Shown piece after piece: positions 51,482-64,000 of a stretch of 64,000 nt of DNA. The first letter of the stretch is position 1, and each line of letters opens with the position of its first letter. The position numbers and the translations under genes are program-made. The DNA is from Octopus vulgaris (taxonomy: Eukaryota), in the NCBI GenBank assembly GCA_951406725.2, contig OX597814.1, positions 205,530,001 through 205,594,000 on the forward strand, in the 5' to 3' direction. The notes under the pieces were generated by a model. It was not told where the DNA came from. It did not search any database and saw only the letters and a list, made by a program, of their open reading frames with translations.

Positions 51482-52019
51482 TATATATATATAAAGATGT
51501 AAGAGTGTAATCAAAAAAGTGTGGATTCGAAAGAATTGTGTGGCTGATCTGATAAGCTAGCTTTCTTTATTTGCATTAATTTGTGAATGCAGAGCATCTT
51601 AACATTTGTTGCCTTCCTTTGTCATCTCCTTAATGATGTTCAACATGCAGAGATCAGCTTTAACTCCTTCTGCTTATGTCTTCCTCTGATTCCTTCTGAA
51701 TATATTTTTTTCGCTCATCTTCACCTCCCTGTCATCATTTACCACAGGCCCATATCAACACAGCCTTCTCTCTTACACACTACATCTGATTCCTCTTATA
51801 CTCAATTTTCTCATAGATCATCTGTGGCCGGTGGCACGTAAAAAGCACCCACTACACTCACGGAGTGGTTGGCATTAGGAATGGCATCCAGCTGTAGAAC
51901 ACTGTAGAAACACTGCCAGATCAGACTGGAGCCTGGTGTAGCCTCCTGGCTTCCCAGACCCCGGTCGAACCATCCAACCCATGCTAGCATGGAAAACGGA
52001 CGTTAAACGATGCTGATCA

Positions 52020-52790
52020 TCATCATCATCTATGTTCTGTCAAACAAACATACTAATATTATATATTCAATGGATAATACTTATATCATTTCTTTCCCAC
52101 TATTCGTACACCCTCTCTGCATTCACAACTATGTAGCATTATCTCCAACAGAATTGCCGTTTGTATAAAAGATCTACAATCTATCCTTTTCTCACACAGT
52201 GACTCCCACTGTCAGCAGAAGTATCAGTTCCCAGAATTTTCTCCATCCTATTCTGACTAATTTTGGTTACTAAATTTCAGAATCCCTTTCCCCATTGTTT
52301 ATTAGATCACTCAAACAGCAAAAGTTATCAACAACTTCTATTGAACTTTCTGAACATTGCATGGAATTTATTTTACTGGGGACTCAAAGTCTAACTACAC
52401 CTGCACATTTACCAAAAGCAAAGCCTTTATTCACTTCATCATCATCATCGTTTAACGTCCATTCTCCATGCTAGCATGGGTTGGACGGTAATAATAGGGA
52501 GGCTGCCGTGACCAGGATTCGAACCTGGGTTACCACGGCCACAACATGGGGTCCTAACCACTAGACAATCACAGCTATGAACCTCCCGTTTGTTTTAAAT
52601 TCCATTACACATTTTGTGCACTCATAGATCTCACTGGTATGGAATTTCTCCCTACTCTTTTTCTGCATATTAAACACAGCTATTTCTTTGATGGTATCAG
52701 CAACCTGCTTACTTTCCTATTTACATTAAAACTTTAATCTTTGTTAAGTTTGTTCTGAGACCTGTTCCTAAACCTTCTTCACTAATTAAA
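52020..52790 (-). mobile_element. old RTE LINE relic hosting the tRNA chimera
   Basis: Degenerate IEVVDNF, RIGWRKF.EL, CRKRVGRNSI motifs homologous to 17545-17900. Confidence 0.65.
52504..52575 (-). tRNA. tRNA-His(GTG), probably a retrocopy or pseudogene
   Basis: GCTGTGATTGTCTAGTGGTTAGGACCCCATGTTGTGGCCGTGGTAACCCAGGTTCGAATCCTGGTCACGGCA: 72 nt, full cloverleaf, anticodon GTG. Three apparent CpG>TpG changes relative to canonical invertebrate tRNA-His. No oligo-T terminator downstream. Confidence 0.9.
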
Positions 52791-53039: not shown

Positions 53040-53660
53040 CTACCCAGTCTAAATGAACTCTGCATTTCCATTGTACTCAAAGTAGGAGCTGGCGTCTGTG
53101 TGGGACTACAGTATCACTGTGGTATGCCCTTCAACTCTACAGGCCTTGATGGTTTGTCTTGCCACCTATATGCTGGTCGTTTTACTTGTAACACTGAGCT
53201 AAGCTTAATCATTAAGTGGATTCCTGGCTCAGGTTAATATCCCCTTAATTCTGGAGTAGTAGGGATTATCCAGAAGTGATAGGAAGAGACTAAATGGTCT
53301 TACTCTTTGTCCCTGGGTATGAAGAGATAGGGATACCACAGTCTGTGACTTCTTTGCTCCTTCCCACATCCTGGATGCTGCAGTAAATGGGAGTGACACT
53401 GCTTCTGCAGCTGAACAGAACAAAATCGTTAAGTGCCGGGACTCATCAGTGAACCCTTTCTTCCAGCCTGTGGCATTTGAGACATTTGCAGGGGCTGGGC
53501 CACTAACAACAAAGTTCTTGTCATTGTTAGCGACTTGCCTTACTGAAGTGCCAGGTGATGCCCAGGAGGGTGCTTGGCAGTTCCAATGCCTTGACCTCAG
53601 CATCACCCATGGTAATGCTGCAAGCAGGTTGGCTTGCTTCAATAGTTTCCTTTGACCCTT
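53040..53660 (+). mobile_element. CRE-clade RLE retrotransposon 3' fragment
   Basis: GLSRSDRKRLNGLTLCPW, AAEQNKIVKC, FQPVAFETFAGAG..FL, GD..EG.WQFQCLDLSITHGNAAS. Confidence 0.8.
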
Positions 53661-63322: not shown

Positions 63323-63789
63323 TATGTTTCTTTATTAGCCACACGGGGCTGCACACAGACGGGACAAATTACAAAGTAGAGCTTTTCTTTATGGGGAGAA
63401 AAGAAGAAAAAAAAAGTGGGGTAGGTTTTTGATCAAAAGGGATCGCAAAAGGGAAAGAAAAGAAAAAAGAAAAAGAAAAAAAACGATCAATAGGGATCGT
63501 GTATCACAGAAATGTCATGATGTAAAGTGTAAAGGGGGAAGTAGATAGGGTTTATCCATGGAAAGAAAAGCCTACGGAAAAGACCATGGTAACCTCGGTC
63601 AATAATGTCACCTGTTAACACATTTGTTTGCAAGTAGGTAACCCTCTGTTTTAAATTTTTCCAGGTTCATAGGATTATGCTCAAGGTGGCTTCGTCATTC
63701 ATATGTGCCATCCTTGCCACATTCACCCATCTTTTTTTGAAACATTCACTTGACAAAACTTGCCTCTCTACTCTCACTTTCCTTTTCAA
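63323..63789 (-). mobile_element. Tx1/L1-like LINE 3' end (second family)
   Basis: LKRKVRVERQVLSSECFKKRWVNVARM, homologous to MKQKIRLEKKCLSQSVFHKRWKSIASM at 45720; T-rich UTR and AATAAAGAAA end. Confidence 0.78.
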
Positions 63790-64000
63790 CTGATACTTGA
63801 AGAAGTTGATGAGAGATTGACCAGAGAGGAAAGTGTAATAGGGATAATAATGAAGTCATTGAAAAGAAAAGGATGGGGAATTGTAACGACAGTGATAGGA
63901 TAATGGTGAGGTGGGCAGTAATTATTATGGTAAGGGTGAAGAGAAGAGGCCCTCTGACTAGAAATCTGCATTTTGTACATGGAATTTGTCTTGGGCGGAG

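What the first reader, a model, noticed from the sequence alone, without database searches (positions are those of the whole stretch)
52436..52587. Pre-tRNA-His fused to an RTE 3' tail: a chimeric retrocopy or nascent SINE
Seen: the minus strand reads GGGAGGTTCATA - complete tRNA-His - GCCTCCCTATTATT - ACCGTCCAACCCATGCTAGCATGGAGAATGGACGTTAAAC(GAT)n. The last ~50 nt are the terminal sequence of the abundant RTE family. There is no Pol III terminator between tRNA and tail, and the unit interrupts an older LINE. The flanks GGGAGGT and GCCTCCC are complementary and have the length of a pre-tRNA leader and trailer. Known: RT template switching produces U6-L1 chimeras, and SINEs are a Pol III head plus a LINE tail. 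Inference: RTE reverse transcriptase switched from its own RNA to an unprocessed pre-tRNA, giving a unit with intact A/B boxes and an RTE-recognised end.
Basis: partly seen in the sequence, partly recalled or inferred. Interest (0 to 1): 0.72.

Follow-up and report, generated by a model that had tools for sequence, protein, structure and literature searches.

The report
Precursor tRNA fused to LINE tail
A copy of an unprocessed histidine tRNA is joined to the last 51 bases of a jumping gene and sits where related animals have an empty site; it is a single copy, one of dozens of such fusions in this genome, likely made when the jumping gene's reverse transcriptase hopped onto a tRNA precursor, the step long proposed to start new SINEs.

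Summary
Observation confirmed. The unit is 149 nt (52439-52587, minus): 12-nt leader, tRNA-His, 14-nt trailer, 40-nt stem-loop plus repeat from an RTE-like LINE. Leader and trailer match one tRNA-His gene on contig C4; homology stops at both ends. Four runs hold the empty site, lacking tRNA and tail together, with no target duplication. Six of six long-ORF LINE copies end in this tail. The junction occurs once, so this is no SINE family; three CpG changes mark it as decaying. It is one case of a genome-wide process: 14 of 15 dispersed copies of this same precursor are joined at their terminator Ts to a LINE or SINE piece, and a second tail has 96 tRNA-type pattern hits over at least 10 isotypes. 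A template jump is likely; RNA ligation is not excluded. Closest known: U6-L2/RTEX chimeras of platypus and anole. This scan noted the same process before, in this genome and others. Interest 0.42.

The parts
52576..52587 (-). 12-nt 5' leader of pre-tRNA-His, identical to the source gene on contig C4 (L034)
   Evidence: 5' edge of the insertion fixed at 52587 by the empty allele
52504..52575 (-). tRNA-His(GTG) body, no added CCA, A and B boxes present, three CpG C>T changes (positions 3, 9, 30)
52490..52503 (-). 14-nt 3' trailer ending in two of the source gene's four terminator Ts
52450..52489 (-). Last 40 nt of an RTE-like LINE, predicted terminal stem-loop; 1 mismatch in 41 nt to intact-ORF copy L139; no microhomology with the trailer
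52439..52449 (-). Trinucleotide repeat end of the LINE (11 nt inserted)
52436..52438 (-). Target DNA that continues the repeat for 3 nt (likely priming microhomology); present in the empty allele
   Evidence: joint 52438 to 52588
52414..52417 (-). First T4 downstream; would end a Pol III read-through transcript of about 174 nt (predicted)
52588..52724 (-). Host: decayed older copy of the same LINE family, upstream part (ORF residues 757-785 match at 52724-52638)
52177..52435 (-). Host: decayed older LINE, downstream part (ORF residues 811-892 match at 52422-52177), colinear across the insertion

Best explanation
This is a single-copy chimeric retrocopy: an unprocessed pre-tRNA-His joined to the 3' stem-loop of an RTE-like LINE and present as one 149-nt blunt insertion, likely made when the LINE's reverse transcriptase jumped from its own RNA onto the U-ended precursor. 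Steps. Shown: source gene, precursor ends, donor LINE family, empty site, single copy, recurrence with other tails and other Pol III RNAs. Inferred: (1) the LINE protein nicked the target and primed on the repeat end with 3 nt of microhomology; (2) after 51 nt, at the base of the stem-loop, the enzyme left its RNA and took the free oligo-U 3' end of a nuclear pre-tRNA, possibly through a non-templated A; (3) it copied to the precursor's 5' end and the cDNA was joined blunt; (4) the copy has since decayed at CpGs and left no daughters. If transcribed, its near-intact cloverleaf would likely be cut by RNase P and RNase Z, separating head from tail (own knowledge), so it is predicted to be a poor SINE founder.
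For: Empty site: X4, X5, X6 skip exactly 52439-52587 in one contig with nothing between and no shared letters; X19 skips it too, with a site one base longer. Precursor origin: identity to the C4 gene covers -12 to +14 only; beyond it 14 of 50 upstream and 10 of 50 downstream letters agree. Donor: 6 of 6 long-ORF copies fetched end in this tail; ORF has endonuclease and RT domains. Recurrence: of 16 loci with this trailer 1 is the gene, 14 of the other 15 are joined at the terminator Ts to a retroelement piece, with 5' ends anywhere from the leader to the acceptor stem, as expected of cDNA. Same tail with tRNA-Asp, tRNA-Pro, a tRNA-Gly end and 5S rRNA. Second tail: 96 hits, control 0; of 50 opened, 48 have tRNA-type heads, 47 have at least 2 T at the junction, none shows an added CCA by eye, and at least one keeps its intron. 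No microhomology at this junction. Precedent for jumps with stringent LINEs: PMC4476161 section 10; PMC3414825 passages.
Against: No target-site duplication brackets the unit, so single-event insertion rests on the empty allele and on the population of like cases, not on a footprint. Ligation gives the same DNA structure, and for human U6/L1 it is the shown route (PMC6789731 passages); PMC8857657 says the A overhang of R2 RT under balanced dNTPs is non-productive for jumping in their assay and doubts that jumping matters in vivo. My idea of a sharp pause at the stem base was not borne out for this tail: T-preceded starts number 21 loci at -40/-39, 7 at -46/-45 and 56 at -36 to -34 (the last inflated by the tail's own T). 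The RTE clade label rests on architecture, recalled motifs and an unreferenced tree; the donor is not RTE-2_OV. Four CpG changes, all on one strand, are many for an insertion absent from a haplotype only about 1% divergent.
Confidence: 0.68

Rival explanations
1. Same single insertion, but the two RNAs were ligated first (RtcB-type joining of the precursor's 3' end to a broken LINE RNA with a 5'-OH) and the fused RNA was then copied without a jump.
For: Shown for human U6/L1, with T-run junctions like these (PMC6789731 passages). Blunt junction without microhomology fits. The second tail starts at nearly one position in 21 of 30 copies, which could be an RNA cut site.
Against: That paper shows RtcB needs a 2',3'-cyclic phosphate upstream; pre-tRNA ends are La-bound U-3'-OH (own knowledge). 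Capture of many kinds of U-ended Pol III RNA (tRNAs, 5S, U6) is simpler if only the end sequence matters.
Confidence: 0.2
2. Two cDNAs made separately (LINE tail by target priming, pre-tRNA from the other end of the break) were joined by host end-joining in one event.
For: No target duplication; blunt ends. Twin priming is proposed for human tRNA/L1 chimeras (PMC13174262 passages).
Against: Twin priming gives antisense heads; here all opened heads are in sense and end in their terminator Ts at the junction.
Confidence: 0.05
3. A nascent SINE: the unit is transcribed by Pol III and is, or was, copied as a unit.
For: A and B boxes present, LINE recognition end present, T4 22 nt downstream.
Against: This junction occurs once among 16 trailer loci and 4 T-loop/tail hits; CpG decay. 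The only repeated junctions seen among 50 opened chimeras share flanking DNA, so they are DNA duplications (L108/L109; L173-L177).
Confidence: 0.04
4. Two independent insertions: a tRNA retrocopy (or DNA-level duplicate) first, then a LINE tail into its T-run.
For: No target duplication; LINE endonucleases can favour T-rich DNA (own knowledge); tails are dense (27 other matches in 64 kb).
Against: Empty alleles lack both parts; 14 of 15 dispersed copies carry a partner at the T-run, leaving almost no tail-less pool; the 19 genuine genes examined carry no such tail at their terminators.
Confidence: 0.03

Closest known systems
U6-L2, U6-Mon-1 (platypus) and U6-L2, U6-RTEX-2, U6-AnolisSINE2 (anole) chimeric pseudogenes (Doucet et al. 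2015, PMC4476161; section 10 read whole, other passages)
   Same: Pol III RNA in sense, often 5'-truncated, joined to a short 3' piece of a stringent LINE or its SINE; short or no target duplication; several LINE clades; ascribed to template switching.
   Different: Head is an unprocessed tRNA with leader and trailer; invertebrate; dozens of source genes; empty allele shown.
Human tRNA/LINE-1 chimeras (PMC13174262, passages)
   Same: tRNA sequence at the 5' end of a LINE insertion, made in one event.
   Different: Those 21 are mostly tRNA halves in antisense with 9-19 bp duplications, ascribed to twin priming; here full precursors in sense, blunt.
R2 template jumps to tRNA-Lys, tRNA-Gly and U12 in Drosophila (PMC3414825, passages)
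   Same: tRNA copied at the 5' end of a non-LTR insertion by a jump.
   Different: There the acceptor is mature tRNA with CCA, joined to full-length R2; here precursors ending in terminator Us, joined to a 51-nt tail.
Human U6/L1 chimeras formed by RtcB ligation (PMC6789731, passages)
   Same: T-run junction to a 5'-truncated LINE.
   Different: Needs the cyclic phosphate of U6, which pre-tRNAs are not known to carry (own knowledge).
tRNA-headed SINEs with RTE tails, e.g. tobacco TS, SINE2_Gav, Bov-tA (PMC3747384, PMC5786205; passages)
   Same: tRNA head plus RTE 3' end: the same parts list.
   Different: Those are amplified families with a body between head and tail; this is one copy with a real tRNA gene sequence and no body.

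Membership tests
Chimeric retrocopy (small RNA / LINE 3' end) | Head is a copy of an RNA, not of genomic DNA (homology ends at transcript ends) | tested here: met
   -12 to +14 only; ends in terminator Ts
Chimeric retrocopy (small RNA / LINE 3' end) | 3' part is the terminus of an autonomous LINE, same strand | tested here: met
   6 of 6 long-ORF copies end in it; EN and RT domains
Chimeric retrocopy (small RNA / LINE 3' end) | Both parts entered together (empty orthologous site) | tested here: met
   4 of 8 runs laid skip the whole unit; none lists a half allele
Chimeric retrocopy (small RNA / LINE 3' end) | Target-site duplication around the unit | tested here: not met
   Blunt, 0 shared letters. 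Usual for L1, but short or absent for L2/RTE chimeras in PMC4476161; does not exclude membership in the stringent-LINE type
Template-switch (as opposed to ligation) product | Junction made during reverse transcription, not in RNA | not testable with these tools
   Needs RNA junction data or an in vitro assay
SINE (tRNA head, LINE tail) | Pol III internal promoter head plus LINE-derived tail | tested here: met
   A and B boxes and tail present
SINE (tRNA head, LINE tail) | Multiple dispersed copies sharing one junction | tested here: not met
   One copy
SINE (tRNA head, LINE tail) | Transcribed as one head-plus-tail RNA | not testable with these tools
   No suitable RNA run was available
RTE clade (donor LINE) | One long ORF with AP endonuclease and RT; 3' end in short tandem repeat | tested here: met
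   1014-1054 aa open frames, PF03372 + PF00078, trinucleotide repeat end
RTE clade (donor LINE) | RT groups with reference RTE elements | tested here: inconclusive
   Groups with in-genome BovB-like RTs apart from CR1-like RTs (100/99), but these labels are recalled, no references were in the tree and long branches meet; nearest Atlas cluster has RT, EN and PHD in 48% of members
RTE-2_OV (PMC9115989) | Matches its published primers | tested here: not met
   4 primers, best 6-8 mismatches in 6 donor copies
Functional tRNA-His gene | Intact cloverleaf and sequence equal to the gene family | tested here: inconclusive
   Passes ARAGORN and Rfam, but two stem pairs became G-U and the predicted fold shifts; expression untested

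The most novel reading that the evidence does not exclude
In this octopus lineage LINE reverse transcriptases of at least three kinds routinely start on their own 3' stem-loop and jump onto the oligo-U end of nascent Pol III transcripts, choosing unspliced, untrimmed pre-tRNAs over mature tRNAs; the genome thus holds hundreds of datable, independent head-plus-tail SINE prototypes, nearly all sterile because a true cloverleaf is cut from its tail, which makes the birth of SINEs, and new tRNA genes by retroposition, measurable in one genome.
Probability: 0.45. Interest if true: 0.65.

Novelty: new variant of a known kind. Interest (0 to 1): 0.42.

Why it matters
That tRNA-derived SINEs start when a LINE tail is joined to a tRNA by template switching is an old proposal (cited in PMC4476161), but the fresh intermediate is rarely seen. 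Here it has a named source gene, a named donor family and an empty site, and it belongs to a population large enough to ask which RNA ends are captured, how often, and why almost none amplify. The copies also record pre-tRNA start sites, terminator lengths and intron status. The single locus itself is most likely a dead by-product.

Tried and rejected
Expression: no RNA holder listed; nothing is concluded. Target duplication: none by local search or empty allele. DNA-level duplication of the tRNA locus: rejected. Sharp truncation hotspot at the stem base for this tail: inconclusive to negative; among 38 tail copies in 516 kb only 3, including this one, are 41 nt or shorter. Donor = the abundant 949-aa LINE family that tops the RT search: not supported, its copies did not end in this tail. 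Donor = RTE-2_OV: rejected; 4 supplementary files of that paper were not searched and could hold its sequence. Microhomology-driven switch: none at this junction, and the parent of the second tail has no T-run at its junction. Five look-alike chimeras on C27 and C29 as a nascent SINE: they share flanks, so DNA duplication. L061, L181, L182: false pattern hits inside repeats. L199 as vault-like RNA (recalled motif): no Rfam hit. Pfam found nothing for the old-LINE fragments or the L042 piece. Runs X1, X8 and X9 cross the 3' junction by only 18-22 letters, under the 31 needed to count as bridging; only X1 bridges the 5' junction firmly.

Full report
What is there. The minus strand holds, from 52587 down, a 12-nt leader, a 72-nt tRNA-His(GTG) (ARAGORN; Rfam RF00005 54.8 bits), a 14-nt trailer, 40 nt that match a repeat end found at 27 other places in the window, and a trinucleotide repeat. 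The genome is 2.8 Gb in 227 contigs; I take it for an octopus from recalled SINE content and size, not from a call.

Source of the head. An exact pattern for acceptor end plus trailer gave 16 loci, control 0. One, on contig C4 (L034), has the same leader and trailer, a T4 and then a longer T-run, and the family-standard tRNA sequence; it is the only tRNA in 9.9 kb and I take it as the source. Window and source agree from -12 to +14 except for three C>T changes at tRNA positions 3, 9 and 30, all in CpG; beyond these limits 14 of 50 upstream and 10 of 50 downstream letters agree, and the other BLAST matches between the two 10-kb regions are weaker (70-83% identity), lie away from the unit and look like dispersed repeats. 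So the head is a copy of the precursor RNA: leader kept, trailer kept, two of four terminator Ts, no CCA. Leader-trailer pairing is a property of tRNA-His genes here in general (19 genes, 4.7 against 3.1 nt).

Source of the tail. Two window copies link the tail to a LINE C-terminus, as do 9 of 9 relatives fetched. Six copies chosen for long open frames (1014-1054 aa) all end in the tail, 527-1105 nt after the frame's stop; L139 differs from the window tail at 1 of 41 positions, a CpG. The frame has endonuclease and RT domains. The 40 nt fold as a stem-loop of -14.0 kcal/mol whose base lies at the junction. The donor's upstream letters do not match the trailer's next letters, so there is no microhomology. 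'RTE' is a likely label, not a tested one: the RT groups with BovB-like in-genome RTs apart from CR1-like ones, with recalled labels and long branches (14 rows), and it is not RTE-2_OV.

One insertion. The host is an old same-strand copy of the same family, colinear on both sides. Of 24 runs listed I laid 8. In X4, X5 and X6 (two studies, three organism labels) one contig joins 52438 to 52588: 149 nt skipped, no letters between, none shared. In X19 (another study, about 4% divergent) the unit is absent and the site is one base longer. X1 bridges the 5' junction with 0 differences; X1, X8 and X9 run 18-22 letters into the tail, too few to count as bridging; X10 does not cover the site. No half allele was listed. 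The empty haplotype differs from the window at 9 of about 850 flank positions in X5, so the insertion is young or an old polymorphism. There is no target duplication; the target continues the repeat for 3 nt.

A class, not a curiosity. Of the 15 dispersed copies of this one precursor, 14 are joined at the terminator Ts to a retroelement piece: this LINE's end (2, one of them longer), a second short stem-loop tail (8), a SINE from its start (2) or truncated (1), and a poly(A)-ended element (1); the 15th (L045) runs into a microsatellite and a repeat. Their 5' ends range from full leader to the last few bases of the acceptor stem. T-loop plus this tail gave 4 hits: this locus, tRNA-Asp, tRNA-Pro and one false hit. 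T-run plus this tail gave 21 loci, of which 3 have Pol III heads (5S rRNA by Rfam; tRNA-Pro and a tRNA-Gly end by eye). T-loop plus the second tail gave 96 hits, control 0. I opened 50 of the 96 (30 returned, 20 picked by me, including suspected false hits and duplicates): 48 have tRNA-type heads, 2 are SINE-internal; 47 have at least two Ts and 40 at least three at the junction; ARAGORN at a relaxed threshold names at least 10 isotypes; none shows an added CCA by eye; L088 keeps its intron. Seven of the 50 are DNA duplicates of two events. That tail's parent encodes an RT.

Not a SINE. This junction occurs once. The copy is decaying at CpGs like its sisters (12 of 110 CpG sites against 8 of 564 others). 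A Pol III transcript could run to the T4 at 52417-52414, but a near-true cloverleaf would likely be processed off its tail (own knowledge). Expression could not be examined.

Mechanism. Shown: the parts, their sources, joint insertion, recurrence, sense orientation, U-ended precursors as heads. Inferred: priming on the repeat end, departure of the RT after 51 nt, landing on the precursor's oligo-U end, copying to its 5' end, blunt joining. R2 RT needs a non-templated overhang complementary to the acceptor end to jump and adds mostly A (PMC8857657, passages), which would favour U-ended acceptors; this is my inference, and the same paper calls the longer A overhang non-productive and points to ligation for L1. 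RtcB ligation makes human U6/L1 chimeras and needs a cyclic phosphate (PMC6789731, passages). I put the jump at about 0.68 and ligation at 0.2; that it is a one-event chimeric retrocopy at about 0.93. A sharp pause at the stem base is not shown for this tail.

What is known. Doucet et al. describe U6 joined to short L2, Mon-1, RTEX-2 and AnolisSINE2 pieces, mostly 5'-truncated, with short duplications, and cite L1-made pre-tRNA retropseudogenes in humans (PMC4476161: passages; section 10 whole; Schmitz 2004 seen only as cited there). Human tRNA/L1 chimeras are mostly antisense halves (PMC13174262, passages). R2 jumps to mature tRNA in Drosophila (PMC3414825, passages). tRNA-headed SINEs with RTE tails are many (PMC5786205, PMC3747384, passages; PMC4494074, first fifth of the text). 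The octopus repeat papers I opened do not describe such chimeras in the passages seen (PMC13282606: 'chimer' 0 times; PMC9115989). Six library searches listed no paper on precursor-tRNA/LINE-tail chimeras in cephalopods; the library lacks most subscription journals. This scan's notes report the same process in this genome and in others; I reached my reading before opening them, and they are not independent support; two gave me paper leads.

Verdict. Real, well supported, a new variant of a known kind. The locus is most likely a dead by-product; the interest lies in the class it belongs to. Interest 0.42.

Noticed in passing
G000-wide; L143-L172: A 43-nt LINE tail has 1675 exact copies. Of the first 30 on C1, 21 start within a few bases of one point, 9 run into a parent with an RT (CR1-like by recalled motifs; Pfam RT in L152), and 4 carry a clear Pol III head (U6, tRNA-Leu twice, a tRNA-like head), a fifth a tRNA-like one.
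   Followed up: partly
L088 (= L150), L091, L107: Chimeras whose tRNA head still holds an intron-like insert in the anticodon loop: capture before splicing.
   Followed up: partly
L039, L043, L023: Pre-tRNA-His joined end to end to the 5' start of a SINE.
   Followed up: partly
L042:1500-1960: 3' end of the same pre-tRNA-His joined to about 440 nt of a poly(A)-ended element whose frame looks like an L1/Tx1 C-terminus (recalled motif; no Pfam hit); a relative lies at window 63404-63836.
   Followed up: partly
L045 (C20): Full precursor with 14-nt leader, read through to a second T-run, then a microsatellite and a repeat with a hammerhead-like core (recalled); the one dispersed copy without a partner directly at the T-run.
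   Followed up: partly
16 trailer loci: Eleven dispersed copies carry a trailer variant not seen in the one source gene of this assembly: an older or other allele, or an unassembled paralogue.
   Followed up: no
L197: Full 5S rRNA with trailer and T-run joined to the same RTE-like tail (Rfam 76.1 bits).
   Followed up: partly
window 52439-52587: Four of 10 CpGs changed, all C>T on the minus strand, none of the other 129 positions; over 10 His copies CpG sites changed 12 of 110 against 8 of 564. The host flank is almost free of CpG (2 in 650 nt), which suggests a methylated region.
   Followed up: partly
window 53323-53652 +: Frame resembling the C-terminal restriction-like endonuclease end of a non-LTR element (recalled motif; no Pfam hit).
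   Followed up: no
G000:C1:195184000-195266000 and C25:4335000-4343000: Clusters of tRNA-His genes and decayed copies in tandem units.
   Followed up: no
window 51820-52020 +: A second, about 200-nt 3' piece of the same LINE family, in the opposite strand, also interrupts the old host LINE.
   Followed up: no
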